Positions 11,763 through 54,887 of a DNA stretch of 57,549 nucleotides are shown here, piece by piece. This DNA is from Gemmatimonadales bacterium (GTDB taxonomy: Bacteria > Gemmatimonadota > Gemmatimonadetes > Gemmatimonadales > GWC2-71-9): contig JBOHSY010000312.1 of the NCBI GenBank assembly GCA_050733355.1, positions 1-57,549 on the forward strand. The letters run 5' to 3'. Positions within the stretch are counted from its first letter, which is position 1. Each line of letters starts with the position of its first letter. A program made the translations under genes and the position numbers. The notes under the pieces were generated by a model that was not told where the DNA came from, searched no databases, and was given only the letters and a program-made list of their open reading frames with translations.

Positions 11763-11899
11763 GGCGGGAGGGGCGGTAGAGACGGTACGGGCGGTCAGGG
11801 AGCGGCGAGAGTGGGAAGGCGGCCCGGTGGATGCCCCTGCCGGCTTTCGCAGCTGTGCAACCCCGGTACCGCCCGTACCGTCTCTACCGCCCTCCCGCC
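11763..11899. repeat. Composite palindromic element E2: 33/32-nt inverted arms with roughly 9-nt GGCGG periodicity, 72-nt core
   Basis: The left arm is GGCGGGAGGGGCGGTAGAGACGGTACGGGCGGT (11763-11795). The right arm ACCGCCCGTACCGTCTCTACCGCCCTCCCGCC (11868-11899) is its reverse complement apart from a 1-nt indel. The element lies between the ACAD stop (11752) and the queF ATG (11945). Confidence 0.85.
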
Positions 11900-11944
11900 C
11901 ACGTTTCTCCTGTTCTCACCGCCCTTCGCTACTACATTACCGGC

Positions 11945-19200: not shown

Positions 19201-19238
19201 CCCGTGTCGCAATGGGGAGACTGAGCAGTGAACGGTAA
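16212..19238 (+). CDS. Ser/Thr protein kinase with TM segment and large TPR-like C-terminal domain
   Basis: GEGGMSVVFRA, AVKML, HRDIKPENILL, DFG and SPEQ motifs. TM segment IGVLGILLAMALGVALWAL. C-terminal TPR-like repeats. GTG start. Confidence 0.85.
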   Translation: MTDAARPSLKLETALAGRYRIEGKLGEGGMSVVFRARDLRHDRAVAVKMLRPELSAALGSERFLREIRIIAGLQHPHILPLHDSGDADGNLYYVMPFVEGESLRQRLDREGALPPADAVRIAREVASALDYAHAHGVVHRDIKPENILLAGPHAIVADFGIARAVDMASGASATATGIVVGTPAYMSPEQAAGETLDGRSDQYSLACVIYEMLSGAAPFAGTTPRELMARHAIEPVPPLSSVKPELPPALSIALARSLEKHPGVRYGSAGSLAAALAGTATPAGATTPVPLPAVPRPRPRIRTIGVLGILLAMALGVALWALHGRSARRTPPVPPTAPGAATAIAVLPFAVSGSDTLGLSEGIVGLLGTKLDGAGDLRVVDPRALLSHVGQERAPRLGPDQGRAVARHFGAGLYVLGDVVQIPGRLRLSAAMYVPDRGEAIARAEAEGDVGRLFELVDDLTAQLLAGWSGRESRVSGIAAVTTSSLPALKAYLEGEAALRDARFDQAIDGFQRAIATDSMFALAWYRLSVAGEWLTRDDLAGPAAERAAQLAGRLPERERRLLEAMRSGRRGAFDEALTRYQAIISTYPEDVEAWIQLAELQFHFGPWRAQSASESRPAWERVLALDPSQIAARVHLARIAAIEGRSGAVDTLVREILALHSAPGRAPGTRSEDLEMETLRAFSIRDTAEQRRVLAELAQASDLTVTLSAWAAASFAYDLPGAISVARVLTQPSRGGTARAVGSLTVAFLEAARGRIGEARRQLALAEAADPERTRTGPALLAVAPFVRTPPAELRRLLARAVAAPPPGPDDDRAGLSVYFRRTPPAQDRRTRLYLAGVLSARLGDRARAAQRAEELSALARSDSGSLAADFAHGIRAELAMTRGNAEEALREVEGMRHETYYITAFAFPELSQARERYYHAEALARLGRPEEALRWFGSFAEFSPYDMLYSAVGHRRRGEILESLGRREAAAQEYAQFIELWKEADPELQPAVREARVAMGRLSSER

Positions 19239-19323
19239 GCGGTGAGCGGTGAGCGGGAGACGAGCCCGTGGGCCCGATTCTGCTGGGGGCCCCCTGCTTA
19301 CTGCTCACCGCTCACCATTTTTT
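19221..19323. repeat. Composite palindromic element E3 (GTGAGCG heptamers) with T6 tract; likely also the kinase-gene terminator
   Basis: Left arm is CTGAGCA GTGAACG GTAAGCG GTGAGCG GTGAGCG (19221-19255), and the kinase TAA (19236-19238) sits inside it. The core holds GGGCCC...GGGCCC. Right arm is CTGCTTA CTGCTCA CCGCTCA CC (19294-19316), then ATTTTTT running into the speA stop (19322-19324). Confidence 0.8.
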
Positions 19324-27019: not shown

Positions 27020-27661
27020 ATGGCCTACGCCGTCAAGGAGATCTACTACACGCTCCAGGGCGAAGGCGCGCAGGCCGGCCGGCCGGCGGTGTTCTGCCGG
27101 TTTGCCGGGTGCAACCTCTGGACCGGCCGCGAGGCCGACCGGGCGTCCGCCGTCTGCGATTTCTGCGACACCGATTTCGTCGGTACCGACGGTCCCGGGG
27201 GCGGGAAGTTCACGGCCGCGGCCGATCTCGCGCGCGCGGTGGACGCCGCCTGGCCCGCGGACGCAGCCGCCGGGGGGCGCAAGTTCGTCGTGTGCACGGG
27301 GGGCGAGCCGCTGCTGCAGCTCGACGCCGAGCTGGTCGGCGCGCTGCACGAGGCGGGATTCCAGGTGGCGGTGGAGACCAATGGCACTCAGGATCCTCCG
27401 GCGGGGCTGGATTGGATCTGCGTGAGCCCGAAGGCCGGCGCCGAATTGCGGCTCCGGTCCGGCGACGAGCTGAAGCTCGTCTATCCCCAGCAGGGCGCGG
27501 AGCCCGCGCGTTTCGAGCGGCTCGACTTTCGGCACTTCTTCCTCCAGCCGATGGACGGGCCGGAGCGCGACGCCAACACCCATGCCGCGCTGGTCTACTG
27601 CCTGGCGCATCCGCGCTGGCGGCTGAGCCTTCAAGCTCATAAGCTTCTCGGAATTCCGTAG
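27020..27661 (+). CDS. queE: 7-carboxy-7-deazaguanine synthase (radical SAM)
   Basis: KEIYYTLQGEG, then Cys spacing C-x14-C-x2-C (GCNLWTGREADRASAVCDFC). It starts 4 nt after queC. Confidence 0.9.
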   Translation: MAYAVKEIYYTLQGEGAQAGRPAVFCRFAGCNLWTGREADRASAVCDFCDTDFVGTDGPGGGKFTAAADLARAVDAAWPADAAAGGRKFVVCTGGEPLLQLDAELVGALHEAGFQVAVETNGTQDPPAGLDWICVSPKAGAELRLRSGDELKLVYPQQGAEPARFERLDFRHFFLQPMDGPERDANTHAALVYCLAHPRWRLSLQAHKLLGIP

Positions 27662-27776
27662 GGCGGGAGAGGGCGGGAGAAGGCGGCAGCGGGCGGGAGC
27701 GGCTGCAAAACGAGCCTCCTGAGTGCCCTGTCCATCTCCCGCCCGCTCCCGTCCGCTCCCGACCACTCCCGCCCCG
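27660..27776. repeat. Composite palindromic element E4: (GGGCGGGAGA-like decamer)x4, 32-nt core, (CTCCCGCCCG-like decamer)x4
   Basis: Left arm 27661-27703, core 27704-27735 (contains CGAGCCTCC), right arm 27736-27775. About 32 of 38 positions are complementary. It spans from the queE stop to 6 nt before the HD-gene ATG. Confidence 0.85.
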
Positions 27777-27781
27777 CCGCC

Positions 27782-28396
27782 ATGCATGGATATTCGGATC
27801 GGATAAACCACGCCCTTGCCTTCACCGCGAAGCACTACCGCCCCTCGTTCCCGCCCTGGGGCGGCATGGGACACGTGGCGCATCCGGCCAATGTCGGGCT
27901 GATTCTGGCACGGTACGGGTGCGACCAGCCGACGATCGTAGCCGGCATCGTGCATCACGTCCTCGAGGAGTTGCCGCCCCCGGAGCGCACCGCCTACGAG
28001 GCGAAGATCTCGGAGAAGTTCGGACCCGTGGTGCTCGCGGTGGCGCTCGACGCCAGCGAGCTGCGATTCGACGAGCGCGGCGAGCGCCCCTGGCGCGCGC
28101 GCAAGCTCGAGCTCCTCTCGCACCTCGGCGTCGCCGAGCCGCGGGCGCTGGACGTGATCGCGGCAGACGAGATTCATCACTGTGGATCGTTGATCGCGGC
28201 GACGAGGCGCCTGGGCATCGAGTACCTCCACACGGTCAGCCAGGCCAGCTCGGAGCAGATCCTGTGGTGGTACCGGTCCATGCTGGAGGTTCTGATGGCG
28301 AGGGGAGACTGGCCCCAGCGGGCCATGCTGGAGGAGATCCGCGCGCTGAGCGCCGATCTCGTCCGGAGCCTGCAACAGCGCGAGGAGGAACTGTGA
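27782..28396 (+). CDS. HD-superfamily domain protein (SpoT/Mesh1-like hydrolase fold) with HH in place of the HD doublet
   Basis: Pattern INHALAFTAKHY...HVAHPANVGLILA...TIVAGIVHHVLEE parallels the H...HP...HD(V/I)xED pattern of RelA/SpoT-type HD domains. No SD, since the start abuts element E4. Confidence 0.6.
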   Translation: MHGYSDRINHALAFTAKHYRPSFPPWGGMGHVAHPANVGLILARYGCDQPTIVAGIVHHVLEELPPPERTAYEAKISEKFGPVVLAVALDASELRFDERGERPWRARKLELLSHLGVAEPRALDVIAADEIHHCGSLIAATRRLGIEYLHTVSQASSEQILWWYRSMLEVLMARGDWPQRAMLEEIRALSADLVRSLQQREEEL

Positions 28397-33037: not shown

Positions 33038-33221
33038 CATGGCCGATTCGATCTCGGCTGTACAGCTTCCAGATTATCTGTAGTGTCTATGGAAGACTTG
33101 GGCGCGAGTTCGTCCAAGTCTTTGTCGCATTTTGTGACTCGGGACAGGCCCGTGCTCACAAGATCTCGGTGCCCGGTTTCATCCGGTCACCGATGCAGTC
33201 AAACCAACAGGAGTAGCACCA

Positions 33222-33434
33222 ATGGCTCGCACCACTGGCACGGTGAAGTGGTTCAACGACGCGAAGGGGTTCGGCTTCATCACCCCGGAGAACGGCGACA
33301 AGGACTGCTTCGTCCACCACACCGCCATCAAGATGGACGGCTTTCGCAGCCTCACCGAGGGCGAGAGAGTCGAGTTCGACATCGTGCAGGGTGCGAAGGG
33401 CCCCGCTGCCGAGAACGTGACGAAGGCGAAGTAA
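33222..33434 (+). CDS. cspA: Cold-shock protein (CspA family)
   Basis: [15 protein letters not shown] (RNP1) and DCFVHH (RNP2), 70 aa. SD CAGGAG. Confidence 0.95.
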
Positions 33435-33435
33435 A

Positions 33436-33604
33436 CGGTATCGGCTATCCGCTATCGGCTATCGGCTATCCGCCTGTTCCGATGCATGCGAGCCTCCGAG
33501 GTCCCTAGGGCACCGGAGGCTCTCGCACGTTCGGAGCAAGCGGATAGCGGATGGCCGAAAGCGGATAGCGGATAGCGGATAGCGGATAGCCGATAGCGGA
33601 TAGC
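33436..33604. repeat. Composite palindromic element E5: (GCTATCS)x5, 66-nt core with GAGCCTCCG/CGGAGGCTC hairpin, (GCGGATA)x9
   Basis: Left heptamers 33437-33471. Core stem 33490-33498 / 33514-33522. Right heptamers 33540-33602. It fills the gap between the cspA stop (ends 33434) and the infA stop (starts 33605). Confidence 0.9.
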
Positions 33605-33823
33605 CTACTTGTGCCTGTAGATCACCCGTCCCCGGGTAAGATCGTAGGGCGAGAGCACGACGGTTACGCGGTCGCCTTCCAGCACCCGGATCTTGAACTT
33701 GCTCATCTTGCCGGCGGCGTACGCGAGGATCTCGTGACCATTCTCCAGCATGACCCGGTAGTTGCGGTCCGGGAGCACCTCGGTCACCACTCCCTCCATC
33801 TCGATGCCTTCTTCCTTGGCCAT
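33605..33823 (-). CDS. infA: Translation initiation factor IF-1
   Basis: [72 protein letters not shown], 72 aa, S1-like fold. SD GGAGAG. Confidence 0.95.
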
Positions 33824-35613: not shown

Positions 35614-35960
35614 TGCGAGCCTCCAGACAGGCCGTGAACCGGAGGAAACTCGCCGAAGTGCTCCACCAGCGCAAACGCGGCGCGCACCGCTCGCGGTCCG
35701 GGGGCTCGCTCGCATTGCCGGGCCGCCGTGAGCAGCGCCGGCCGGATCCTTGCCGCACGCGCCGCGCACGTCGCGCCGCAGCGCTCGACGTGCTCGAGGT
35801 GCAGTTCGACGATAGCCCGCGTGCCGAGCCGGGATGGAACGTCGACAGCGGCGAATGCGGCCCGCGGCTTCAGCACCCAGGTGAGCCCCGGCAGGAGACC
35901 CGCCGCGCCCACCAGGAGCCCGATGGCGCGGCGGCGCGAGCAGGCCAGCCGCGGGCTCAC
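35610..35960 (-). CDS. Small hypothetical exported/membrane-anchored protein (116 aa, 4 Cys)
   Basis: GTG 35960 overlaps the DUF2339 TGA, and its own TGA overlaps the pepF GTG (two GTGA junctions). N-terminus VSPRLACSRRRAIGLLVGAAGLLPGLTWVL looks like a signal/TM segment. GC3 is high in this frame. Confidence 0.45.
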   Translation of the reverse strand: MSPRLACSRRRAIGLLVGAAGLLPGLTWVLKPRAAFAAVDVPSRLGTRAIVELHLEHVERCGATCAARAARIRPALLTAARQCERAPGPRAVRAAFALVEHFGEFPPVHGLSGGSQ

Positions 35961-37837
35961 GTGGGGTCCGGGCTCGAGCCCTGCGCGTGCCGGTGGTAGA
36001 GATAGGCGAGCAGCAGCGACACGAGGCCGAGGATGAACACCGAGGCGACCCGGTACAGCGCATCGAGCGAAGCCAGATCGAAGACCAGCACCTTGAGCAC
36101 GGCGAGCCCGGCCACGCACAATCCAGCGAGCCGGGCGGGCCGGATGCCGCGGCGGAGCCCGAGCGTCACGAGCCCCGCGGCGAATACGAGCCACCAGGCG
36201 CTCACCGACAGCCCGCTCGCGAGCGAGGCGGTGGCTCGCGTAGGCGCCTCCAGGCGGAAATACCGCCGGATCTCTTCGGTGACGCCGAACAGCGCCAGGG
36301 CACCCGCGACGAGCCAGAGGCCGCGGCAGACCAGTCGCGCGGCGTCGTTGAGCGGCACTCGCTTCCAGAGCCCGGCGGCAAGGGCGGTGGTGACGCCGAG
36401 GGCGAGCCACTGGACCCCGGCCCAGGCGCCGGTGAACGCCCGCTCGTGATAGTCGCGCCGCGAGGCGTCCGCGTCGTACAGATGCGCGAGCGCGAGCGCC
36501 AACGTGCCCACCGCGTACCAGCGTCCGTCGCTCCGTCCGAGCCGATGGTCGAGCGCCGCCCAGAGCGCCGTGAGGCCGAGCAGCACGAGCGTCGCCTCGA
36601 GCCCGGTCCAGCGCTCCAGCGCGGCCACGGCGAGCGCGGCCGCGCCCACGAAGGCGAACGCCGGGCGCGGACTCGTGTAGCCGACCACGAGATAGGGAAC
36701 CGCCACCACCAGCGCGGCGAGCCCATCGTGCTCGGCGAAGATGGTGGGCGCCAGGGTCCGGACGGCCCAGCCGAGCAGCACCGGGGTGGCAAAGAAGTAG
36801 AGCGCCTCGCCCGGCGACCAGCGGTCTCGCCGCAGGAGGCCGTGACGCCAGACCGGCGCCGCGAGCAGGAGGCCGGCAACGAAAATGGGCCAGCGCGGGT
36901 GCAGCCGCTCGGCGACGGTGGCGAGCAGCGCCCAGCCGCCCCAGAACGCGAGGAAGCGCGTCTCCCACCACCGCTCGCGCAGCCCGACCCATACGCCTCC
37001 GGCCCCGCCGAGCACCGCGTACGCGAGCGCGCCCGCGGGCCGCCGCGACTGGGCGGCGGCGGCCCAGCCGAGGCTGAAGAAGCTCACCGCGATTGCCGCC
37101 ATGGTGTAGCGCCACCGGCGGCGGGCGGCGACCCAGCCAAGCGCGGCGGCCATCGAGCCCTGGTACAGGAGCAGGAGATCGGCGTCGGCGCGCTCCCGTC
37201 CCAACAGCACCGGTGCGACGAACGCGCCGAGCACTGCCGTGAGTCCGAGCGCCTCGACGTCGATGGCGTAGGCGATGGCCGCGAGGGACAGCGCGACGAG
37301 CGCGAGCCCGGCGATGCCGGTGGTCGGGGGCAGGAAACCGTAGAGCCGCGCGGCCGCCCAGACCGACAGGTAGATGATCGCCGCACCGCAGCCGATGAGC
37401 GCGGCGCCGTAGATGCGATAGCGGCCGTGCAGCCGCCAGCCCAGCGCGCCGACGCCGACGCCGGCCAGCACGCCGCCGGCACACCGCATCGCGGGTGAGA
37501 TCCAGCCCCGGTCGAACGACAGCTTGAGCAGATAGCCGGCCGCGAGAATCAGCGCGAAGACGCCGACGGCGAGGAGGCCGCGCTGACCGATCCACTGCTC
37601 GAAGGGGCGAGAGGCCGGGAGCGGGCGGGAGCGGACGGGAGAGGGAGGGATCGGGGGAACCGGCGGCGGCGCCAGAACCGGTGGAGCCGACATCGGCGTA
37701 GTCGCGTCTTCCGGCTCCCGCCCGCTCCCGCCCGCTCCCGCCCTTTCCCGACTGCCGGCGGTCGCGAGGTCCCGCACCAGCGACTCCAGCACCGCCATGC
37801 GCTGCTCCAGCCGGTCCAGCCGTTCGTCCACCGACAT
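35957..37837 (-). CDS. DUF2339-family polytopic membrane protein
   Basis: N-terminal coiled-coil MSVDERLDRLEQRMAVLESLVRDL, a Pro-rich linker, then about 16 TM segments. SD GGAGG 5 nt upstream of ATG 37837. Confidence 0.75.
   Translation of the reverse strand: MSVDERLDRLEQRMAVLESLVRDLATAGSRERAGAGGSGREPEDATTPMSAPPVLAPPPVPPIPPSPVRSRPLPASRPFEQWIGQRGLLAVGVFALILAAGYLLKLSFDRGWISPAMRCAGGVLAGVGVGALGWRLHGRYRIYGAALIGCGAAIIYLSVWAAARLYGFLPPTTGIAGLALVALSLAAIAYAIDVEALGLTAVLGAFVAPVLLGRERADADLLLLYQGSMAAALGWVAARRRWRYTMAAIAVSFFSLGWAAAAQSRRPAGALAYAVLGGAGGVWVGLRERWWETRFLAFWGGWALLATVAERLHPRWPIFVAGLLLAAPVWRHGLLRRDRWSPGEALYFFATPVLLGWAVRTLAPTIFAEHDGLAALVVAVPYLVVGYTSPRPAFAFVGAAALAVAALERWTGLEATLVLLGLTALWAALDHRLGRSDGRWYAVGTLALALAHLYDADASRRDYHERAFTGAWAGVQWLALGVTTALAAGLWKRVPLNDAARLVCRGLWLVAGALALFGVTEEIRRYFRLEAPTRATASLASGLSVSAWWLVFAAGLVTLGLRRGIRPARLAGLCVAGLAVLKVLVFDLASLDALYRVASVFILGLVSLLLAYLYHRHAQGSSPDPT
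37604..37750. repeat. Composite palindromic element E8 (GCGGGCGGGA decamers) lying in frame inside the DUF2339 CDS
   Basis: Left decamers are GAGGCCGGGA GCGGGCGGGA GCGGACGGGA GAGGGAGGGA (37611-37650). Right decamers are CCGGCTCCCG CCCGCTCCCG CCCGCTCCCG CCCTTTCCCG (37711-37750). At least 23 of 25 nt are complementary in the best register. It has the same unit and orientation as E4. Confidence 0.8.
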
Positions 37838-37853
37838 GGCGACCTCCGAGGGG

Positions 37854-39095: not shown

Positions 39096-40798
39096 CCCGC
39101 CGCGCCGCCCCGCCGGTCCGCCGCGGCCGCGAACACCAGGGCGCTCAGCACCATCAGCACGACGCCGTACGCGGCTGCCACGCCCACGTCGGCCTGACGG
39201 AGACTGGACAGGATCTCGAGCGAGATCGGCCGGGTATCGTAGGTGTAGAGCACGATCGAGGTCACGAAGTCGCCAAGCGCCGTGACGAACGCCAGGGTCC
39301 CGCCCGCCACGAGCGAGGGGCGTAGCAGCGGCAGGGTGACCGCCGCGAGCGTGCGCCAGCGTCCGGCGCCGAGCGCCGCGGCGGCCTCGTCGAGCGATGG
39401 GTCGAGCGCCCGGAAGCCGGCCAGCGTGGCGCGGCTGGTGAGCGGCAGACTGCGAACCAGATAGGCGAGCGGGAGGATCCACACGGTGCCCACCAGGATC
39501 CAGCGCCCGGCCAGGGGCTCGCGCACGCTGAACGCGGTGGCGAGCGCGATGGCGAATACCGTTCCCGGCACGGCCCACGGGAGGCCGAGGAGCGCCTCGA
39601 GGATCCGCCGGCCGGGCGCCCGGCGGCGCACCACCAGAACCGCGGCCAGGACGGCGATCGCGATCGATACGGCCGTCGCCGCCGTCGCGAGCCCGAGGCT
39701 GTTGAGCAGCGGACGCAGGCGCACGGGATCCCGCACCAGCGTGGCGTAGTTGCCCAGCGTCCAGGCCGGCGGGATGGCCTCCGTGGTCCAGGTGCCGACC
39801 GGGACGAGCGACACCACGAACAGCGTCAGGTGCGGCAGGAGGAGCAGGCCCGCGAGCCCCCAGGAGAGGAACGCGAGCCCGGCGCGCGCGAGAGGCCGGC
39901 GCACCCGGACGGGCGCCGGCGCAGCGCCCTTTCCCCCGCCCCGCGCCGGCTCGCGGTCGGCATCGCGGAAGAGAACCAGCGCCGCGAGCGCGAGCACCGT
40001 CAGCGACACGGTCTCCACCATCGCCAGCGCCTCCTCGCCGTTGAGACGGGTGGCCACGATCTGCGTGGTCATCACGCGGTATCCGCCGCCGAACACGTAC
40101 GGGGCGCTGAACGAGGCGAGCGACGTCATGAAGGTGAGCAGCGCCGCCCCGGTGAGGGCGGGCCGCAGCGCGGGCAGAACGACCTGGCGGAGCGTCCGCC
40201 AACGGCCGGCCCCGAGGCTCGCGGCCGCCTCGAGCTGCGCCCCGTCGAGCGACAGGAGCGCGGCGCGCACCAGCAGGTAGAAGTACACGTACATCGAGTA
40301 CGCGTGCACCAGCAGGATCGCGCCCGCGCCCTCGAGCCGCCACGGCGGCTCCTCGAGACCGAGTGCCGCCTGCACCGCGCGGGCCAGGAAGCCGGACTCG
40401 CCGTAGAGAAAGAGGAACGCGACGACGCCCACCAGCGGCGGGAGCACGGCGGGGAGCGCCACGATCCCCGCCAGGAGCCGCCGGCCCGGAAAATCGTAGC
40501 GGGCGAACAGCACAGCGAGCGGTATGCCGACCAGCGCCGCGAGCAGGACACTCGCCAGGGACACGAGCAGGCTGCCCCTGAGTGCCTGCCACTCGGTGGG
40601 CCGCGCGGCGAACTCCCGCACATGCTCGAGCGTCCAGCCGCCGGGCCCGTGCACGCCTTCGACGAACACGAGCATCAGCGGATAGATCACCAGCCACGAC
40701 AGGAAGAGCAGAAGAGCAGAGGAGCCGAAGAGCCGGGGTGCTGCGCGGGGCCTTGGGCGGTCGAGCCGGCTGTCCGGCACATCTGCCCTTCCGCTCAT
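39092..40798 (-). CDS. ABC transporter permease, fused two-domain type (Fe3+/thiamine-family architecture)
   Basis: 568 aa with two homologous 6-TM halves, as in FbpB/ThiP-type permeases. The ATG overlaps the ATPase stop (ATGA at 40795-40798). Confidence 0.85.
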   Translation of the reverse strand: MSGRADVPDSRLDRPRPRAAPRLFGSSALLLFLSWLVIYPLMLVFVEGVHGPGGWTLEHVREFAARPTEWQALRGSLLVSLASVLLAALVGIPLAVLFARYDFPGRRLLAGIVALPAVLPPLVGVVAFLFLYGESGFLARAVQAALGLEEPPWRLEGAGAILLVHAYSMYVYFYLLVRAALLSLDGAQLEAAASLGAGRWRTLRQVVLPALRPALTGAALLTFMTSLASFSAPYVFGGGYRVMTTQIVATRLNGEEALAMVETVSLTVLALAALVLFRDADREPARGGGKGAAPAPVRVRRPLARAGLAFLSWGLAGLLLLPHLTLFVVSLVPVGTWTTEAIPPAWTLGNYATLVRDPVRLRPLLNSLGLATAATAVSIAIAVLAAVLVVRRRAPGRRILEALLGLPWAVPGTVFAIALATAFSVREPLAGRWILVGTVWILPLAYLVRSLPLTSRATLAGFRALDPSLDEAAAALGAGRWRTLAAVTLPLLRPSLVAGGTLAFVTALGDFVTSIVLYTYDTRPISLEILSSLRQADVGVAAAYGVVLMVLSALVFAAAADRRGGAAG

Positions 40799-41886
40799 CT
40801 GCTCTCCCGCTCCTCAGCGAAGAGATGGATTCCGCCCCCGCTGCGTCGGCTCGGCGCGAGGCCCACTCGATCGCCGGGATGCGCGGCGCTGCCGGGGCCG
40901 CTCACCTCGAGCAGTGTGCCCGCGTCGGTGCGCAGCAGATACAGCGAGTTCGCCCCCGCGAACCGCCGCTCGAGCACCATCGCGGCCAGGAGGCCGGGGT
41001 CCGGCCGGGCGAGCCAGAGCGCTTCGGGCCGCAGCAACACTCGCACCGCGCTCCCGACCTCGAGCGCGCGCTGTACGCCGGCGTCGGCCGGCACGCCCCA
41101 GACGCAGCTCTCGACCCCGACCCGCGCGCCCTCCGCCGTGAGGTCGAGGATCCGGCCCCGCAGCTCCGACGCGCGGCCGACGAACCGTGCCACGAATGGG
41201 CAGGCCGGAGCGTCATACAGCTCGTCGGGCGTGCCCACTTGCTCGAGCCGGCCGTCTCTGAGCACGGCCACCCGATCGCCGAGATCGAACGCCTCCTCCT
41301 GCTCGTGGGTCACGAGCACGGTGGTGATGCCGACCCGGCGGATCACGTCCCGGAGCTCGTGCCGCGTGCGCTCGCGAAGGGTGGGGTCGAGGTTGGAGAG
41401 CGGCTCATCCAGCAGCAGGACCCGCGGCTCGGGCGCGAGCGCCCGCGCCACGGCGACCCGCTGCTGCTGCCCGCCCGAGAGCTGGGCGATCCGGCGACGC
41501 TCGTAGCCGGCGAGATCCACCAGCGCGAGCGCCTTCGCGACCCGGTGCTCGAGGTCGCCGCCGCGTACCCCGAGCGACTCGAGACCGAACGCGATGTTGT
41601 CGCCGACATCGAGATGAGGAAACAGCGCGTAGTGCTGGAAGACCATTCCGAAGCGGCGGGCCGCAGGCGCGAGAGGGGTGACGTCGGCGCCCTCCACGAG
41701 GACCCGGCCGGCATCCGGCGCCTCGAATCCCGCGAGGAGGCGGAGCGTGGTCGTCTTGCCACTGCCGCTCGGCCCGAGCAGTGCCAGGATCTCGCCACGC
41801 GCGAGCGCGAGCCACACGTTGTGCACGGCGACCTGATCGCCGAATCGGCGCGTCAGGCCCTCGAGCGAGAGGAACGCCTCGGTCAC
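40795..41886 (-). CDS. ABC transporter ATP-binding protein (FbpC/PotA-like with C-terminal TOBE-like region)
   Basis: Walker A GPSGSGKTT, signature LSGGQQQRV, Walker B LLLDEP. GTG 41886 overlaps the SBP stop (GTGA). The ORF is open to 41931. Confidence 0.88.
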   Translation of the reverse strand: MTEAFLSLEGLTRRFGDQVAVHNVWLALARGEILALLGPSGSGKTTTLRLLAGFEAPDAGRVLVEGADVTPLAPAARRFGMVFQHYALFPHLDVGDNIAFGLESLGVRGGDLEHRVAKALALVDLAGYERRRIAQLSGGQQQRVAVARALAPEPRVLLLDEPLSNLDPTLRERTRHELRDVIRRVGITTVLVTHEQEEAFDLGDRVAVLRDGRLEQVGTPDELYDAPACPFVARFVGRASELRGRILDLTAEGARVGVESCVWGVPADAGVQRALEVGSAVRVLLRPEALWLARPDPGLLAAMVLERRFAGANSLYLLRTDAGTLLEVSGPGSAAHPGDRVGLAPSRRSGGGIHLFAEERESR

Positions 41887-42932
41887 GGCCGGCCGGTATG
41901 GCGCACGTGCCGGTCCCAGTAGCTCATCCATGCGGGGCCCCGGGAGGATGCGAGCTCCCAGTCCATCTCCGCCACCACCATCTCACGCTCCACCTCAGCC
42001 ACCCACGCAGGCACGCGGTCCGGCGGCAGATCGCGGCGCGCCGGGAGGCGGAACACCCCGCTGGCGGCGAGAAGCTGGCCGTCCACGCTGCCGACGAAGT
42101 CGATGAAGGCCCGGGCCACCTCGGGATGACGGCTCCCGCGCACCAGCCCGATCGCGTCGTCGATCACCACGGTTCCGCTCCGGGGAAAGACGTAGTCGAA
42201 CGGCATGCCCTTCGACCGGCCGATCAGGATGTCGGGCAGGTCCCAGAGCGTGACCAGGCCCTCCTGCCGCGCGAGCTTGGCGTCCAGTACCGCGGGGTTA
42301 AGCGCGTATGCCCTGGTCTGCGCGTCGAGCCTGCGGAGCCACGCCATCCCCTGCGCGGTATCCCCGGTCTCGCGGATGCTCCGCACCAGGATTAAGGCCC
42401 AGATCGCCCGCATGGTACCGCTGGCCATCGGGTCGCGGATCAGCACCTTGTCGGTCCAGCGGGGGGCGAGCACTTCGTCCCAGTCGTGCGGCGCCGTGGC
42501 GCGGGTGACCGCGCGCGCGTTGAAGGCGATGACTGCCGGTGTCCGGTACGCCGGATAGTAGAGATCGGCCGGCCCCGCCGCGCGACTGTCCACGGCCCCG
42601 GCCCACGCGGGGCGGTACGGCGCCAGCAACGAGTCCCGGACGCCGCGTTCGAACAGGGTGGTAGGCCCGCCGAACCAGACGTCGGCCTGCGGGTTGACCC
42701 GCTCGAAGCGGAGCCGGTCCAGGATCTCCTGGCTGCCCATGTCGAGCCAGCGTACGTCCACGGCGGGATGCCGTCGCTCGAACTCGCGCTCGAGCAGCGT
42801 GAGCTGATCCCGGCCATGGGGCGAGTAGAGCAGGAGGGGTGTTCGGTCGTCACGCGCGCATCCGAGCAGCGCGAGCAGCAGCAAAAGCAGTTCACACCGA
42901 GGCGCGGAGAACAACTTTCCGCGTGGTCTCAC
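41883..42932 (-). CDS. ABC transporter periplasmic substrate-binding lipoprotein (family 1, Fe3+/thiamine/polyamine-like)
   Basis: GTG 42932 gives VRPRGKLFSAPRCELLLLLLALLGC (lipobox LLGC). LLLYSPHG...DVWFGG is typical of this SBP class. The start is uncertain (alternative GTG at 42956). Confidence 0.72.
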   Translation of the reverse strand: MRPRGKLFSAPRCELLLLLLALLGCARDDRTPLLLYSPHGRDQLTLLEREFERRHPAVDVRWLDMGSQEILDRLRFERVNPQADVWFGGPTTLFERGVRDSLLAPYRPAWAGAVDSRAAGPADLYYPAYRTPAVIAFNARAVTRATAPHDWDEVLAPRWTDKVLIRDPMASGTMRAIWALILVRSIRETGDTAQGMAWLRRLDAQTRAYALNPAVLDAKLARQEGLVTLWDLPDILIGRSKGMPFDYVFPRSGTVVIDDAIGLVRGSRHPEVARAFIDFVGSVDGQLLAASGVFRLPARRDLPPDRVPAWVAEVEREMVVAEMDWELASSRGPAWMSYWDRHVRHTGRP

Positions 42933-43023
42933 GTCCAGGCATCCAGCATCTTGCACATGAGGCCCCGATAATGGCGGTTCTCCGCGTCCTCCGCGCCTCG
43001 GTGTGAACCTCTCGGAGCCCGGC

Positions 43024-47744: not shown

Positions 47745-50564
<2,820 letters not shown>

Positions 50565-50706
50565 CCGCTATCCGCTATCCGCTATCCGCTTGGAGTAGGC
50601 GAGCCTCCGTGTCCTTGGACATCGGAGGCTCACTTGCTTCGGGGCACGCGGATAGCGGATAGCGGATAGCGGATAGCGGATAGCGGATAGCGGATAGCCG
50701 ATAGCG
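50565..50706. repeat. Composite palindromic element E6: (GCTATCC)x3, 58-nt core with GAGCCTCCG/CGGAGGCTC hairpin, (GCGGATA)x7 + GCCGATA
   Basis: Left heptamers 50567-50587. Core stem 50601-50609 / 50623-50631. Right heptamers 50648-50703. It fills the gap between the acnA stop (ends 50564) and the sigma-factor stop (starts 50707). It has the same unit, core and orientation as E5. Confidence 0.9.
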
Positions 50707-51600
50707 CTACGCTACAAAATCCCGAATCCGGTCGCCGGTGTCCCCTACGCGCAGGCGGAGCAGCGCGCGGTCGCGGAGCTGGCGAATGCGCTCGCGGGTA
50801 ACCCCCATCATCCGGCCGATCTCCTCGAGCGTGCGGCTGTTGCCGTCGTCCAGGCCGAAGTAGAGCCGGAGCACCTTGGCGTCGCGCGGCGGCAGCGTGG
50901 CGAGCGCGAGCTCGATGTCCCGGGTCTGGCTGTTCACGAGCGTGGAGGCGTCGGTGCTCTCCTGCTCGCCGGTGGAGAACCGCTCGATCCGCTCGTTGCC
51001 TTCGCCGTCCCGGGTGGGATGGTCGAGCCGGACCGCTTCGGAGTTGAGGGCGCTGAGGCTCCGCACCGCCTCGACCGTGAGCCCGGTGGCGCGGGCGAGC
51101 TCTTCGGTGGTCGGCATGCGGCCGAGCCGGTCCTTGAGCAGCGTCGTGGTACGACCCAGCCGGCTCAGGTCGGCCGTGCGGTTGAGCGGCACCCGGACCG
51201 GGCGGCCGTGCCGGGCGATGGCGGCCTGCACCGCCTGCCGGATCCACCAGACCGCGTAGGAGATGAACTTGACGCCGCGGTCCGGATCGAACTTGCGCGC
51301 CGCCGTCATCAGCCCGAGGTTCCCCTCGCCGATCAGGTCGACGAGCGGCACGCCCCGGTTCTGGAACTTCTTGGCCACCGACACGACGAAACGCACGTTG
51401 TGCCGCGCCAGCCGCTCCTGGGCGACGACGCTGCCCTTGAACGCCTTGCGCGCGAGCTCCATTTCCTCCTCGCGATTGAGAAGGGGGACCCTGCTGATTT
51501 CATCCAGATAAAGGTCGAGACTCTCTCTGCCTTCGTCCACTGCGCGAGCGATCTGGGCCGGCCGGACCGGGCGCCGCTTGGCACGTGGCTTCACACTCAC
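50707..51600 (-). CDS. RNA polymerase sigma-70 family factor (group 2/3-like, 297 aa)
   Basis: Region 2 (FISYAVWWIRQAV) and region 4.2 (TLEEIGRMMGVTRERIRQL). GTG start with SD GGAGGA. Confidence 0.9.
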   Translation of the reverse strand: MSVKPRAKRRPVRPAQIARAVDEGRESLDLYLDEISRVPLLNREEEMELARKAFKGSVVAQERLARHNVRFVVSVAKKFQNRGVPLVDLIGEGNLGLMTAARKFDPDRGVKFISYAVWWIRQAVQAAIARHGRPVRVPLNRTADLSRLGRTTTLLKDRLGRMPTTEELARATGLTVEAVRSLSALNSEAVRLDHPTRDGEGNERIERFSTGEQESTDASTLVNSQTRDIELALATLPPRDAKVLRLYFGLDDGNSRTLEEIGRMMGVTRERIRQLRDRALLRLRVGDTGDRIRDFVA

Positions 51601-53399: not shown

Positions 53400-54805
53400 C
53401 CTACGGGCTGGTGCAGGCGGCCTACCTCGTGGCGACGGCGCTGTTCGTCTTCGCGCTGCACTGGATGAACCACCCGAAGACCGCCCGTCGCGGGGTGTCC
53501 GCGGGCGTGGCGGGCATGGCGATCGCGGTCATCGCCACGTGGGCGCAGCCCGCGATCGTGCACCACGTCTGGATCGTCGTGGCAGTCATCGCGGGGTTCG
53601 GGGTCGGCGTTCCGCTCTCGATGGTGCCGCTCACGGCGGTGCCGCAGCGGACCGCGCTGTCGCACGCGTTCGGCGGCCTCGCGGCCGGCCTCGTGGGCGC
53701 GGCGAAGTATTACCTCTGGCTGGGCGACGCCCCCGAACAGCTCACCGCGTTCCGCATGACCGCGATCATCATCGAGATCATCCTGGGCTTCCTGACCTTC
53801 ACCGGAAGCCTGATGGCAGCGGGCAAACTGCAGGAGGTGAAGTGGATCCCGCAGCGGCCGGTCACCTATCCGCTTCAGAACGTCACCAACCTGGCGCTCT
53901 TCCTCCTCGCGGCCGCGATCGGGGTGGCGCTCGCGATGAACCCGACCGCCGACTGGGCACCTCGGGTTTTCCCCATCATCATCGTCCTCGCGCTCCTCTT
54001 CGGCATCCTGCTGATCATCCCGATCGGGGGCGCGGACATGCCGACCGTGATCGCGATCCTCAACGCGTACGCGGGGCTCGCGGCGGTGGCGATGGGTTTC
54101 GTGCTGGACAACAAGCTGCTGATCACGGCCGGCGCGCTCGACGGCTCGAGCGGGCTCATCCTCGCCATCATCATGTGCAAGGCGATGAACCGCTCGTTCA
54201 CCAACGTGCTGTTCGGCGCGTTCGGCCAGGTGCAGCAGCTCAAGGCAGGCGGCGAGCAGCAGCAGTACAAGTCCGAGACCATCGAGGGCGCCGCCCAGGT
54301 GCTGGAGCAGGCACACACGGTGGTGATTGTCCCGGGCTACGGCATGGCGGTGGCCCAGGCGCAGCACAAGGTGCGCGAGCTGTACGACCAGCTGCGGAAG
54401 CGTGGCATCACCGTGAAATTCGCCATCCACCCGGTGGCGGGCCGCATGCCGGGCCACATGAACGTGCTCCTCGCCGAGGCGGACATCCCGTACACCGATC
54501 TCGTGGAGATGGACGAGATCAACCCCGATATGCCCCAGTGTGACGTGGCGCTGGTTGTGGGCGCGAACGACGTCGTGAACCCGGCGGCGCGCAGCGACAA
54601 GTCGAGTCCCATCTTCGGCATGCCGATCATCGACGCCGATAAGGCACGCACCGTGTTCGCGATCAAGCGGAGCAAGAACCCCGGCTTCGCGGGGATCGAC
54701 AACGCGCTCTACTTCTCCGACCGCACCTGGATGCTGTTCGGCGACGCCAAGGGGGTCGTCGGCGAGCTGGCCAAGCAGATGAGCGGGAACAGCGCAATGC
54801 ACTAG
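53396..54805 (+). CDS. pntB: NAD(P) transhydrogenase subunit beta
   Basis: ATGA overlap with pntAB. Membrane dII-b plus C-terminal dIII (VIVPGYGMAVAQAQH, HPVAGRMPGHMNVLLAEA). Confidence 0.93.
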   Translation: MTYGLVQAAYLVATALFVFALHWMNHPKTARRGVSAGVAGMAIAVIATWAQPAIVHHVWIVVAVIAGFGVGVPLSMVPLTAVPQRTALSHAFGGLAAGLVGAAKYYLWLGDAPEQLTAFRMTAIIIEIILGFLTFTGSLMAAGKLQEVKWIPQRPVTYPLQNVTNLALFLLAAAIGVALAMNPTADWAPRVFPIIIVLALLFGILLIIPIGGADMPTVIAILNAYAGLAAVAMGFVLDNKLLITAGALDGSSGLILAIIMCKAMNRSFTNVLFGAFGQVQQLKAGGEQQQYKSETIEGAAQVLEQAHTVVIVPGYGMAVAQAQHKVRELYDQLRKRGITVKFAIHPVAGRMPGHMNVLLAEADIPYTDLVEMDEINPDMPQCDVALVVGANDVVNPAARSDKSSPIFGMPIIDADKARTVFAIKRSKNPGFAGIDNALYFSDRTWMLFGDAKGVVGELAKQMSGNSAMH

Positions 54806-54887
54806 GATGGCCAGATGGTCGGATGGTCAGACGATCGGTGTGAGGCTGGCCCTTCGGATCATCTGACCATCGGTCCCTCCGACCAGC
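54806..54887. repeat. Composite palindromic element E7: (GATGGTCN octamer)x4, 16-nt core, (complementary octamer)x4
   Basis: Left arm is GATGGCCA GATGGTCG GATGGTCA GACGATCG (54806-54837). Right arm is CGGATCAT CTGACCAT CGGTCCCT CCGACCAG CC (54855-54887). It fits exactly between the pntB TAG (54803-54805) and the convergent gene's stop (54888-54890). Confidence 0.8.

What the first reader, a model, noticed from the sequence alone, without database searches (positions are those of the whole stretch)
37604..37750. A decamer-type palindromic element sits in frame inside the DUF2339 gene and encodes its low-complexity linker
Element E8 lies wholly within the open frame 35957-37837 (minus strand). 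Its left arm is GAGGCCGGGA GCGGGCGGGA GCGGACGGGA GAGGGAGGGA (37611-37650). Its right arm is CCGGCTCCCG CCCGCTCCCG CCCGCTCCCG CCCTTTCCCG (37711-37750).

Translated on the coding strand, the two arms give ...GSRERAGAGGSGREPE... and ...PPIPPSPVRSRPLPASRPF.... This is exactly the linker between the N-terminal coiled-coil (MSVDERLDRLEQRMAVLESLVRDL) and the first TM helix.

E8 has the same unit and the same plus-strand orientation as intergenic element E4 (27660-27776).

Either a repeat element inserted in frame and was tolerated as a disordered linker, or the mRNA carries a roughly 140-nt hairpin early in the CDS with regulatory consequences.
Basis: partly seen in the sequence, partly recalled or inferred. 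Interest (0 to 1): 0.7.

Follow-up and report, generated by a model that had tools for sequence, protein, structure and literature searches.

The report
In-frame palindromic repeat forms protein linker
A 147-base hairpin-forming repeat, one of a family scattered through this soil bacterium's genome, sits in frame inside a membrane-protein gene and encodes its floppy linker; relatives keep the same or a different hairpin at the same spot, so the DNA or RNA structure, not the peptide, appears to be what is maintained.

Summary
Window 37611-37655 and 37711-37750 are inverted arrays of four GGGAGCGGGC-type decamers. They lie in frame in the minus-strand DUF2339 gene (35957-37837) of a Gemmatimonadales genome. 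They encode residues 30-78, which is exactly the disordered stretch between an N-terminal helix and the first TM helix.

- The linker predates the element: every orthologue has one, and many are plain Pro/Ala-rich with no palindrome. No clean empty site exists.
- Translation starts at 37837, not at the internal Met.
- In the close clade both arms persist and co-vary. One relative has swapped the unit in both arms.
- The hairpin is more stable than the protein sequence alone explains.
- A distant clade carries inverted octamer arrays at the same position. A subclade carries a REPIN-like palindrome there.
- Nearly identical strains differ by whole linker cassettes.

The same architecture fills gaps between convergent genes and operon junctions throughout the window. 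I read E8 as a REP/REPIN-like palindromic tandem-array element held complementary at the nucleic-acid level, with the peptide as a passenger. A role as an operon-internal RNA hairpin is inferred, not shown. It is a new variant of known kinds (REPs, Rickettsia RPEs, Xanthomonas G-rich inverted arrays).

The parts
37711..37750 (-). 5' arm on the mRNA: four G-rich decamers (GGGAAAGGGC GGGAGCGGGC GGGAGCGGGC GGGAGCCGG on the coding strand). Encodes residues 30-43 (RERAGAGGSGREPE). Matches a G-quadruplex motif.
37656..37710 (-). Spacer (loop) of the palindrome. Encodes about residues 44-62 (DATTPMSAPPVLAPPPVPP). It is less conserved than the arms among close relatives.
37611..37655 (-). 3' arm on the mRNA: C-rich decamers complementary to the 5' arm. 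Encodes about residues 62-76 (PIPPSPVRSRPLPAS), immediately before RPFEQWIGQRG and TM1.
37585..37771 (-). Full extent of the imperfect long hairpin (62-nt arms, 74% complementary). The 181-nt stretch folds at -107.7 kcal/mol.
35957..37837 (-). DUF2339 membrane-protein gene (626 aa). It has an N-terminal helix (residues 3-27), a disordered linker (28-78) that corresponds to E8, and a polytopic TM domain from residue 79.
37757..37837 (-). Conserved N-terminal helix coding region with the true start codon ATG at 37835-37837. GGAGG on the coding strand lies at 37843-37847.
27660..27776 (+). E4, an intergenic sister element with the same decamer unit. It begins right after the TAG stop of the upstream gene (..CCGTAG|GGCGGGAG) and ends just before the ATG of the HD_4 gene.
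40703..40812 (-). Element of the same architecture (octamer GAAGAGCA arrays). It spans the ABC-ATPase stop and the permease start. Its 3' arm encodes LFGSSALLLFL of the permease.
42893..43005 (-). Long hairpin at the PIG-L|SBP junction. Its 3' arm lies inside the N-terminal signal-peptide coding region of the SBP gene.
33436..33605 (.). GCGGATA-heptamer palindromic element with a core hairpin GAGCCTCCG..CGGAGGCTC. It fills the gap between the convergent cspA and infA stops.
50558..50707 (.). Second GCGGATA-heptamer element with the same core. It fills the gap between the convergent aconitase and sigma-70 genes.
54803..54890 (.). GGATGGTC-octamer palindromic element between convergent pntB and DUF748 genes. 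Its two ends supply the TAG stop codons of both genes.
19222..19319 (.). TGAGCGG-heptamer palindromic element between the convergent Ser/Thr kinase and arginine decarboxylase genes.
11763..11900 (.). GGCGGTAGG-nonamer palindromic element upstream of queF (25-nt perfect arms).

Best explanation
E8 is one copy of a Gemmatimonadales-wide class of palindromic tandem-array elements. Each element has two inverted arrays of about four short units (7-10 nt) around a spacer of roughly 60 nt, and folds into a long GC-rich hairpin.

In this genome such elements normally fill the gaps between convergent genes and the junctions inside operons, much as REP/REPIN elements do elsewhere. At DUF2339 the element occupies the one part of the gene that tolerates almost any sequence: a pre-existing disordered linker between the N-terminal helix and TM1.

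The peptide (Gly/Arg/Glu-rich, then Pro/Ser/Arg-rich) is a passenger. It is simply what the G-rich and C-rich arms spell in this frame.

Shown here:
- The complementarity of the arms is actively maintained at the nucleic-acid level. The arms co-vary, the unit can be replaced in both arms together, and the arms are as conserved as the flanking coding sequence or more so.
- The arrays change length only by multiples of three units, because the reading frame filters the changes.
- Over longer times whole linker cassettes are exchanged.

Inferred, not shown:
- Maintenance comes from selection for the hairpin, probably helped by arm-to-arm template switching and slippage.
- The most likely role is that of a REP-like RNA hairpin about 100 nt downstream of the upstream MFS gene's stop codon. 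The MFS-DUF2339 gap is only 16 nt and cannot hold such an element.
- In that role the hairpin would protect the upstream transcript's 3' end and/or attenuate read-through into DUF2339 when the gene is poorly translated.
For: Real, and part of a family:
- The decamer is shared with E4 only (15 hits against 1.2 expected).
- At least 9 elements of the same architecture, with different units, lie in 57.5 kb. All fold as long hairpins with z from -2.6 to -11.3.
- Across 1.44 Mb of related loci there are 81 inverted array pairs: periods 7/8/9/10, a mode of 4 units per arm, and a median spacer of 57 nt.

Placement like REPs:
- Four elements exactly fill gaps between convergent stop codons.
- Others sit at operon junctions, and some ends supply TAG stop codons.

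The linker is ancestral and disordered.

Maintenance at the nucleic-acid level:
- Relatives L077, L079 and L001 keep both arms, with compensatory changes (GGGAGCGGGC/GCCCGCTCCC becomes GGGAGAGGGC/GCCCTCTCCC).
- L162 has GGGAACCGG / CCGGTTCCC in both arms, with a hairpin of -134 kcal/mol.
- Ten of 58 pairs changed on both sides, against 4.8 +/- 1.5 in shuffles (0/500). 87% of cells are paired, against 38-52% when the partner is slid.
- The hairpin exceeds a synonymous-codon permutation null: window z = -3.3, many orthologues -4 to -10.
- The arms are 93-100% identical between the window and L077, against about 85% for the flanks.

Same position, different palindromes:
- Octamer arrays occur in most of the 'LSSEQWIGQRV' clade, with unit-matched arms.
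- A REPIN-like 23-25 bp perfect inverted repeat occurs in L009, L098 and L103.

Frame filter: L165 has exactly three extra decamers (+30 nt) in one arm.

After L080 lost its 5' arm, its 3' arm lost its periodicity.

Function of the analogues: REPs act as terminator/stabiliser hairpins in 3' UTRs and between convergent genes (bioRxiv 10.64898/2026.03.23.713779; PMC3733652).
Against: - There are no expression data of any kind.
- No U-tract follows the hairpin, and the scan finds no terminator-like site at E8.
- On the sense strand, arm mismatches are A.C 82 against G.U 35 across 49 orthologues. That is the opposite of what selection on a sense-RNA hairpin with wobble tolerance predicts. Coding bias could explain it.
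- About half of the orthologues lack any excess hairpin although the permease-MFS-DUF2339 synteny is universal. The hairpin is therefore dispensable.
- The RNAalifold covariation term is slightly unfavourable (+3.5) because of register ambiguity and broken pairs.
- E8 itself has no GTAG tag, and its arms are not self-complementary REP units.
- No RAYT or other mobilising gene lies in the window.
Confidence: 0.55

Rival explanations
1. Selfish or neutral structural DNA. The palindrome has no function for the cell. It persists because inverted tandem arrays renew themselves: replication slippage within arms plus intrastrand template switching between arms, or a REP-type transposase. The disordered linker merely tolerates it.
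For: - No G.U wobble signature on the sense strand.
- Frequent loss: a 36-nt deletion of one arm in L080, and no palindrome in L081, L003 and whole clades.
- Presence/absence and replacement polymorphisms at intergenic sites.
- Elements of different unit families occupy the same site in close relatives.
- Template switching is known to create and maintain hairpins and to produce apparent compensatory changes in one step (PMC8794818, PMC8604942).
Against: - The element is retained in nearly all of about 50 species-level lineages of the octamer clade and through the decamer clade.
- The arms are more conserved than the flanking coding DNA.
- Family members sit precisely between stop codons and at cistron junctions, which suggests use by the host.
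- Long perfect palindromes are normally unstable in bacteria (established knowledge).
Confidence: 0.3
2. Contingency (phase-variation) switch. Units of 10 or 8 nt in the 5' coding region slip by one unit, shift the frame and turn DUF2339 off and on.
For: - The unit lengths are not multiples of 3 and lie early in the CDS.
- Copy number varies from 3 to 10 among orthologues.
- Two octamer-clade loci (L068, L071) are out of frame between the ATG and TM1.
Against: - Both out-of-frame loci come from one set of MAGs (isolate names beginning MFD). A third locus from that set (L060) has a frameshift in a non-repeat linker, so assembly error is likely.
- The only close-strain length change seen is exactly 3 units and stays in frame.
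- L077 and L078 are identical.
- The short gene calls (534 aa) are annotation artefacts: L164 is in frame.
- This model explains neither the inverted partner arm nor the intergenic family members.
Confidence: 0.07
3. Low complexity at the protein level. Selection for a flexible Gly/Arg-rich then Pro-rich linker produces G-rich and C-rich codons, and the complementarity is incidental.
For: - All orthologues have Pro-rich linkers.
- G-rich and C-rich halves pair to some degree automatically. The synonymous-sampling null already gives -95 kcal/mol for the window.
Against: - The units match base for base between the arms and change together between lineages: GCGGGGAA/TTCCCCGC, GCGGGGCA/TGCCCCGC, GCGGGTAA/TTACCCGC, GGGAACCGG/CCGGTTCCC.
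- The 10- and 8-nt periodicities are out of phase with codons.
- The hairpin exceeds the synonymous-permutation null.
- The same decamer forms an intergenic element.
Confidence: 0.03
4. G-quadruplex / i-motif element. The G-rich arm, which lies on the coding strand and in the mRNA, forms a G4 that modulates transcription or translation. The C-rich arm competes with it through hairpin formation, giving a structural switch.
For: - Only 9 G4 motifs occur in the whole window, and 4 of them are the arms of E4 and E8.
- The arrays have a mode of four units, as in the G4-forming GGGNATC arrays of Xanthomonas and Nostoc, where 70-75 inverted pairs per genome were reported (PMC4692102).
Against: - Many family members have units without G3 tracts (GCGGATA, TGAGCGG, GGATGGTC, GAAGAGCA), and only 55 of 81 pairs contain GGG.
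- The REPIN-like variant at the same site is not a G4 motif.
- With a complementary arm 55 nt away, the hairpin should dominate in single strands.
Confidence: 0.1

Closest known systems
REP / REPIN elements of the GTAG-tagged superfamily (Di Nocera et al. 2013, PMC3733652; Bertels & Rainey 2011, PMC3116915)
   Same: - Two inverted arms 20-100 bp apart fold into one long hairpin.
- The family sits between convergent and unidirectional ORFs.
- Element ends supply TAG stop codons (E4; 54803-54890).
- Several sequence families coexist in one genome.
- Some copies lie inside ORFs.
- Position persists over long times while sequence turns over.
- A true REPIN-like variant (GTAGGGGCGACGCGTGCGTCGCC, in inverted pair) occupies the same DUF2339 linker site in L009, L098 and L103.
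   Different: - The arms of E8 are tandem arrays of a decamer, not self-complementary REP stem-loops.
- E8 has no GTAG or CGTC tag.
- No RAYT gene is known for these genomes, and none lies in the window.
- E8 is intragenic and read in frame.
Rickettsia palindromic elements (RPEs; Ogata et al. 2000, recalled from memory and cited in PMC1779305 and PMC10969869)
   Same: - A palindromic repeat of roughly 100-150 bp lies in frame inside a protein-coding gene.
- It is translated into a peptide segment in a part of the protein that tolerates it.
- Sister copies lie in intergenic DNA.
   Different: - There is no clean empty site in orthologues, because the linker is ancestral.
- Only the arm unit is shared with the sister copy, not the whole element.
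- The arms are tandem arrays.
- The same site carries different palindromes in different clades.
- The phylum and the sequence are unrelated.
G-rich heptamer tandem arrays (GGGNATC) of Xanthomonas and Nostoc, single or as inverted pairs (Rehm et al. 2015, PMC4692102)
   Same: - Short tandem units of 7-10 nt, with a preference for about four units.
- Many occur as convergent inverted pairs able to form stem-loops.
- They lie near stop codons and between ORFs transcribed in the same direction.
- Position is conserved between related genomes, with length variation.
- They match G4 motifs.
   Different: - The unit sequences differ, and many unit families exist per genome, some not G-rich.
[quoted passage not shown]
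- Covariation and unit replacement in both arms are documented here.
Coding palindromes in Nematomorpha mitochondrial genes (Mikhailov et al. 2019, PMC6649704)
   Same: Long inverted repeats are embedded in frame in functional protein-coding genes, and both arms are translated.
   Different: There the arms encode conserved functional protein regions under amino-acid selection. Here the arms encode a disordered, freely varying linker. The mitochondrial arms are also not tandem arrays.

Membership tests
REP/REPIN (GTAG/CGTC superfamily) | Each unit is a 20-40 nt imperfect palindrome (its own stem-loop) | tested here: not met
   The E8 arms are G-rich or C-rich decamer arrays and are not self-complementary. 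The feature is met only by the variant at the same site in L009, L098 and L103.
REP/REPIN (GTAG/CGTC superfamily) | GTAG or CGTC tetranucleotide at one end of the unit | tested here: not met
   E8 has no such tag. Its coding-strand flank reads GGCAGTCGGGAAAGGG. A tag is present in E4 (CCGTAG|GGCGGG), at the right ends of the 33436 and 50558 elements (GCCTAC, GCGCTAC) and in the 54803 element.
REP/REPIN (GTAG/CGTC superfamily) | Two units in inverted orientation 20-100 bp apart that form a larger hairpin | tested here: met
   The spacer is 55 nt and the hairpin folds at -100 kcal/mol with z = -5.55.
REP/REPIN (GTAG/CGTC superfamily) | A cognate RAYT (TnpA-REP) gene in the genome | not testable with these tools
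   No transposase is found among 33 window proteins scanned with Pfam. The whole genome is not available.
RPE-like in-frame palindromic insertion | A palindromic element of about 100-150 bp read through in frame within a real gene | tested here: met
RPE-like in-frame palindromic insertion | Orthologues with a clean empty site, showing insertion | tested here: not met
   All orthologues have a linker of comparable length. L080 differs by a 36-nt deletion of one arm, not by an empty site.
RPE-like in-frame palindromic insertion | Dispersed copies similar over the whole element | tested here: inconclusive
   Only the decamer arms are shared with E4, and the spacers are unrelated. Only 57.5 kb of the genome is visible.
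G-rich short-tandem-array repeats (Xanthomonas/Nostoc type) | Tandem G-rich units of 6-9 nt with about four units, often as inverted pairs | tested here: met
   E8 has 4 + 4 units of 10 nt. Across 81 pairs the mode is four units.
G-rich short-tandem-array repeats (Xanthomonas/Nostoc type) | G-quadruplex formation | not testable with these tools
   The sequence motif is met. Biophysical tests were not possible.
G-rich short-tandem-array repeats (Xanthomonas/Nostoc type) | Consensus unit GGGNATC | tested here: not met
   The unit here is GGGAGCGGGC.
Contingency locus (SSR phase variation) | Copy-number changes among close strains that shift the reading frame | tested here: inconclusive
   The only close-strain change is +3 units, which stays in frame. 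Two out-of-frame loci come from one set of MAGs (isolate names beginning MFD) that show an unrelated frameshift elsewhere.
Intrinsic (rho-independent) terminator | A GC-rich hairpin followed by a U-tract | tested here: not met
   No T-run follows either side of E8, and the scan finds no site there.
MITE | Terminal inverted repeats flanked by a target-site duplication | tested here: not met
   No direct repeat flanks E8 or E4. The arms are internal tandem arrays rather than unique TIRs.
Rfam RNA families | A match to any curated covariance model | tested here: not met
   No hit at gathering threshold in the window. No hit at E <= 1 on any element in 27000-55500.

The most novel reading that the evidence does not exclude
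Gemmatimonadales carry an undescribed, order-wide system of self-renewing palindromic tandem-array elements. In this reading the elements act as nucleic-acid punctuation of operons and are replaced site-specifically by other unit families. The nucleic-acid structure requirement then literally writes protein segments: the DUF2339 linker, a lipoprotein signal-peptide core and the start of a permease TM helix. The N-terminal cassette of DUF2339 is a population-level hypervariable locus driven by these elements. This would imply a dedicated maintenance or mobilisation machinery (RAYT-like or other) and a selected function of a roughly -100 kcal/mol hairpin inside a coding region.
Probability: 0.3. 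Interest if true: 0.8.

Novelty: new variant of a known kind. Interest (0 to 1): 0.62.

Why it matters
If the reading is correct, this is a clear bacterial case in which a nucleic-acid structure dictates what a stretch of protein looks like, rather than protein function doing so. It does this repeatedly: in the linker of DUF2339, in a signal peptide and at the start of a TM helix in the same operon.

The case also extends REP/RPE-type biology to a poorly studied, mostly uncultured phylum.

It documents three points about such elements:
- The arms can be tandem arrays that evolve in concert.
- The reading frame filters array dynamics to multiples of three units.
- The same coding site is re-occupied by different palindromes, even among strains that are otherwise 100% identical.

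There is a practical consequence for annotation. Gene callers truncate these genes: 534-aa calls exist for an ORF that is in frame for about 636 aa. Low-complexity filters also hide the region.

The hypothesis of an operon-internal terminator/stabiliser hairpin placed inside the next gene's linker can be tested directly.

Tried and rejected
- Rfam at gathering threshold on the whole window, and at E <= 1 on 27000-55500, found nothing on any element.
- The consensus promoter/terminator scan found nothing at E8.
- The metagenome scan for close relatives returned only two loci from the close clade (L081, L082). I had to fetch relatives one by one, and three look-ups returned no DNA.
- The G.U against A.C wobble test for a sense-RNA hairpin gave the opposite sign (A.C 82, G.U 35). 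I report it as non-supportive or inconclusive.
- I asked whether hairpin presence correlates with synteny, on the idea that the hairpin serves the upstream gene. Synteny is universal, so the test cannot discriminate.
- Phase variation via short gene calls was rejected. The 534-aa proteins of the same clusters turned out to be annotation artefacts, because L164 is in frame.
- The core hairpin GAGCCTCCG..CGGAGGCTC as a family-wide signature was rejected. With both halves intact it occurs only in the window and in L079, and not in E8.
- A DGR-type variable region was considered for the hypervariable cassette and rejected. The variation includes indels and whole-segment replacement, it is N-terminal, and no RT or template repeat is seen in the loci held.
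- Literature searches for a description of such repeats in Gemmatimonadota found none.
Full report
**1. The observation**

- Window 37611-37650 reads GAGGCCGGGA GCGGGCGGGA GCGGACGGGA GAGGGAGGGA.
- Window 37711-37750 reads CCGGCTCCCG CCCGCTCCCG CCCGCTCCCG CCCTTTCCCG.
- The two arrays are 83% complementary over 40 nt with a 55-nt spacer. A looser 62-nt pairing extends to 37585-37771.
- TRF calls period-10 arrays on both sides.
- An 18-mer made of the unit hits 15 times in the window at up to 3 mismatches, against 1.2 expected. Thirteen of the hits are in E8 or in the intergenic element E4 at 27660-27774.
- The 147-nt element folds at -100.1 kcal/mol, z = -5.55.
- It lies inside the minus-strand ORF 35957-37837 (626 aa). 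Pfam matches DUF2339 from residue 85.
- The arms encode residues 30-43 (RERAGAGGSGREPE) and about 62-76 (PIPPSPVRSRPLPAS).

**2. Organism and gene**

- Homologues and related loci are all from Gemmatimonadales MAGs.
- The window is ordinary chromosome. It holds leuA-like, gltB, citrate synthase, aconitase, a sigma-70 factor, pntAB and queC/E/F genes, and no transposase.
- DUF2339 sits in a conserved co-directional gene row, PIG-L, SBP, ABC ATPase, permease, MFS, DUF2339, M3 peptidase, infA. The permease-MFS-DUF2339 part is found in every locus that holds the upstream DNA.

**3. Start codon and linker**

- Every orthologue from 52 to 92% identity begins with the same helix (MSVDERLDRLEQR..LE.L.R). 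A low-complexity stretch of variable length follows, and then (E/Q)QWIGQRG and TM1.
- In the DNA alignment the helix varies mostly at third codon positions.
- GGAGG lies 5 nt upstream of the ATG.
- AlphaFold with 40 homologues gives helix 3-27, residues 28-78 without secondary structure at pLDDT about 34-58, and TM helices from residue 79.
- Translation therefore starts at 37837, and E8 coincides with a disordered linker.
- The linker is ancestral. Whole clades have a plain Pro/Ala-rich linker of similar length with no palindrome.

**4. The palindrome is maintained as nucleic acid**

In the close clade (76-92% aa identity) both arms persist.
- L077, L079 and L001 keep decamer arms, with compensatory differences from the window (GGGAGCGGGC/GCCCGCTCCC against GGGAGAGGGC/GCCCTCTCCC).
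- L162 has a different unit in both arms (GGGAACCGG / CCGGTTCCC) and a hairpin of -134 kcal/mol.
- L161, L163 and L002 have degenerate but pairing decamers.

Tests on a six-sequence alignment:
- 58 consensus pairs, 87% of cells paired, against 38-52% when the partner is slid.
- Ten pairs changed on both sides, against 4.8 +/- 1.5 in shuffles (0/500).

Other tests:
- Against a null that permutes synonymous codons (same protein, same codon counts) the window hairpin has z = -3.3. Many orthologues reach -4 to -10.
- Between the window and L077 the arms are 93-100% identical and the flanking coding DNA about 85%. The spacer is the less conserved part.
- In L080 a 36-nt deletion removed the 5' arm, and the remaining arm has lost its periodicity.

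Protein-level selection cannot explain base-for-base matched units whose 10-nt period is out of phase with codons.

**5. Same site, other palindromes**

I ran TRF on all 163 loci held at that point plus the window, and paired arrays whose units are reverse complements.
- Most orthologues of a distant clade ('LSSEQWIGQRV', 55-60% identity) carry inverted octamer arrays at the same place in the CDS.
- The arm units match again: GCGGGGCA/TGCCCCGC encoding AGQRGSGAAGQ ... APLPRRPAAP; GCGGGGAA/TTCCCCGC; GCGGGTAA/TTACCCGC.
- A subclade (L009, L098, L103, L089) has instead a non-tandem 23-25 bp perfect inverted repeat, GTAGGGGCGACGCGTGCGTCGCC / GGCGACGCACGCGTCGCCCCTAC. That is a REPIN-like pair with a GTAG tag.
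- On an NJ tree of the TM domain the decamer and octamer clades are separated by clades without a palindrome.
- Either the structure is ancestral with losses and turnover, or the permissive linker was colonised more than once. I cannot decide between these.

**6. Dynamics**

- L165 encodes a protein in the same 90% cluster as the window's protein. Its 5' arm is longer by exactly 30 nt, which is three decamers, and its 3' arm is identical. The reading frame thus filters array length changes to multiples of three units.
- L098, L091 and L095 are contigs with Ga01846xx identifiers from three different records. Their DNA is 100% identical for 110 nt upstream, through codon 6, and from SSEQWIGQR for at least 600 nt. 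The roughly 250 nt between (helix plus linker) are only 40-66% identical. They carry three different cassettes: REPIN-like, GCGGGGAA and GCGGGACA.
- The same cassette types recur in a background only about 79% identical in the TM domain (L009 and L103 beside L106 and L101). This indicates recombination or long-lived polymorphism.
- The 534-aa gene calls in several clusters are annotation artefacts, since L164 is in frame.
- Two loci (L068, L071) are out of frame across the arrays. They come from one set of MAGs (isolate names beginning MFD), and another locus of that set (L060) has a frameshift in a non-repeat linker. Phase variation is therefore neither shown nor excluded.

**7. The family**

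The window holds at least nine elements with the same architecture but different units:
- GGGAGCGGGC, twice.
- GCGGATA, twice, with a shared core hairpin GAGCCTCCG..CGGAGGCTC.
- GGCGGTAGG, TGAGCGG, GGATGGTC and GAAGAGCA, once each.
- A plain long hairpin at the PIG-L|SBP junction.

All of those folded form long hairpins, with z from -2.6 to -11.3.

Placement:
- Four of them exactly fill the gap between the stop codons of convergent genes: 19222-19319, 33436-33605, 50558-50707 and 54803-54890. The last supplies TAG to both genes.
- E4 begins at the TAG of the upstream gene.
- Two others overlap 5' coding regions in the DUF2339 gene row. Element 40703-40812 spans the ATPase stop and the permease start, and its arm encodes LFGSSALLLFL. 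The PIG-L|SBP hairpin has its 3' arm in the SBP signal peptide.
- In other genomes a C-rich nonamer array at the PIG-L|SBP junction encodes the hydrophobic core up to the lipobox (LPVLPALSVLPAC).

Turnover at intergenic sites:
- The GCGGATA element in the cspA/infA gap is absent in L080 and L161, which have only a classical terminator. It is present beside that terminator in L077 and L079, and present alone in the window.
- At the E4 site, L165 carries a GGCGGTARG nonamer element instead of the decamer one, bounded by the same conserved flanks.

Across 1.44 Mb there are 81 inverted array pairs. Periods 7/8/9/10 number 16/45/11/9. The mode is four units per arm, and the median spacer is 57 nt.

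**8. How it most likely works**

Shown:
- The element belongs to a family.
- The arms are held complementary at the nucleic-acid level.
- The peptide is a passenger in a disordered linker.
- The reading frame filters array dynamics.

Inferred:
- The family behaves like REP/REPIN elements. In E. coli these act as 3'-UTR hairpins that both attenuate read-through and protect upstream mRNA, and they are enriched between convergent genes (PMC3733652).
- E8 starts 104 nt downstream of the MFS stop codon. The MFS-DUF2339 gap is 16 nt, so the linker is the first permissive place for such a hairpin. A leading ribosome would melt it. It could form and act when DUF2339 is poorly translated.

Against this model:
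- There is no U-tract.
- Mismatches on the sense strand are A.C 82 against G.U 35, the opposite of a wobble-tolerant RNA signature.
- About half of the orthologues lack the hairpin despite identical synteny.

The main rival is a selfish or neutral palindrome kept by slippage and template switching (PMC8794818).

A G4 contribution is possible, because four of the nine G4 motifs in the window are the arms of E4 and E8. It cannot be general, because many units lack G-tracts.

**9. Comparison with known systems, and novelty**

The closest known systems are:
- GTAG-tagged REPs and REPINs.
- Rickettsia RPEs, which are in-frame palindromic repeats.
- The GGGNATC tandem arrays of Xanthomonas, which prefer four units and often occur as inverted pairs (PMC4692102).
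- Coding palindromes in Nematomorpha mitochondria (PMC6649704).

E8 fails defining features of each.
- It has no self-complementary REP unit and no GTAG tag.
- Orthologues show no clean empty site.
- Its unit differs from GGGNATC.

I therefore file it as a new variant of a known kind rather than as a member of any of these. I found no description of such elements in Gemmatimonadota. Interest: 0.62.

Noticed in passing
L098:60-460, L091:2235-2660, L095:10-440 (alignment A4): Three contigs with Ga01846xx identifiers are 100% identical in DNA upstream of DUF2339, through codon 6, and from SSEQWIGQR onward for at least 600 nt. The roughly 250 nt between (N-terminal helix plus palindromic linker) are only 40-66% identical and carry three different cassettes. 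The same cassette types recur in a background about 79% identical in the TM domain. This looks like a hypervariable, recombining N-terminal cassette.
   Followed up: partly
L165:15180-15330, against window 27640-27800: At the junction where the window has the decamer element E4 (upstream gene | HD_4), a close relative carries a different element made of GGCGGTARG nonamers. That is the family seen at window 11763-11900. It starts right after the conserved ..TTCCGTAG, whose TAG is the upstream gene's stop. The flanks are about 83% identical and the element 43-70%.
   Followed up: partly
window 42893-43005; L015:815-930; L022:944-1065; L049:819-1061: The PIG-L|SBP junction carries a palindromic element in many genomes. 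The C-rich nonamer arm lies in the SBP gene and encodes the hydrophobic core of its lipoprotein signal peptide (for example LPVLPALSVLPAC, or (LPV)n). In the window the 3' arm encodes FSAPRCE of the signal-peptide n-region.
   Followed up: partly
window 40703-40812: Inverted GAAGAGCA octamer arrays span the 4-nt overlap between the ABC ATPase stop and the permease start. One arm encodes LFGSSALLLFL at the start of the permease's first TM segment. The hairpin (-69.8 kcal/mol, z = -4.1) includes the permease start codon in its 5' arm.
   Followed up: partly
window 33436-33605 and 50558-50707; L077:7810-8020; L079:13425-13630; L080:13356-13445; L161:14265-14348: Two GCGGATA-heptamer palindromic elements share a core hairpin GAGCCTCCG..CGGAGGCTC. 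In the cspA/infA gap the element is absent in L080 and L161, which have only a classical terminator. It is present next to that terminator in L077 and L079, and present without it in the window. This is a presence/absence polymorphism.
   Followed up: partly
window 54803-54890: The two ends of this palindromic element (..CACTAGGATGG and CCAGCCTACAG..) provide the TAG stop codons of both convergent genes, pntB and DUF748. The same has been described for GTAG-tagged REPs.
   Followed up: partly
L009:6060-6240; L098:180-360; L103:3140-3300; L089: In this subclade the DUF2339 linker holds a non-tandem, 23-25 bp perfect inverted repeat with a GTAG tag (GTAGGGGCGACGCGTGCGTCGCC). Each arm is itself nearly palindromic, so the element has a REPIN-like structure. 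It encodes AVGATRASP ... GRATHASPL.
   Followed up: partly
L068:5951-6198; L071:5927-6189; L060: In two octamer-clade loci the distance from the ATG to TM1 is 1 mod 3, so the N-terminal helix and the TM domain are out of frame. Both come from one set of MAGs (isolate names beginning MFD). A third locus of that set (L060) has a frameshift in a non-repeat linker. I cannot tell assembly error from an OFF-phase variant.
   Followed up: partly
L165:5109-5400: A protein in the same 90% cluster as the window's has a 5' arm longer by exactly three decamers (30 nt, 10 aa: GKRERAGEGESGPERAGEGRRGRELAD). The 3' arm is unchanged, so the two arms are now unequal (7 against 4 units).
   Followed up: yes
L164:2661-3060 (protein P0131, 534 aa): Several database proteins of these clusters are called from an internal GTG inside TM1 (534 aa), although the full ORF of about 636 aa is in frame. 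The helix and the palindromic linker are therefore missing from the called proteins.
   Followed up: yes
L047:5698-6000: One orthologue has a long in-frame 9-nt array (TCTGCGTCT type, encoding (SAS)n over roughly 50 residues) as its C-rich arm. A short complementary G-rich arm encodes AKGAEDAKGAG.
   Followed up: no
window 4253-4285: A CGGAAGAG x4 tandem array lies inside the glutamate synthase large-subunit gene (2025-6752). I saw no inverted partner nearby. It may be an unpaired member of the family or unrelated.
   Followed up: no
window 33168-33475: A weak sub-threshold Rfam match to the cspA thermoregulator (22 bits, E = 0.05, gathering score 78) covers the region of the cold-shock gene.
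   Followed up: no
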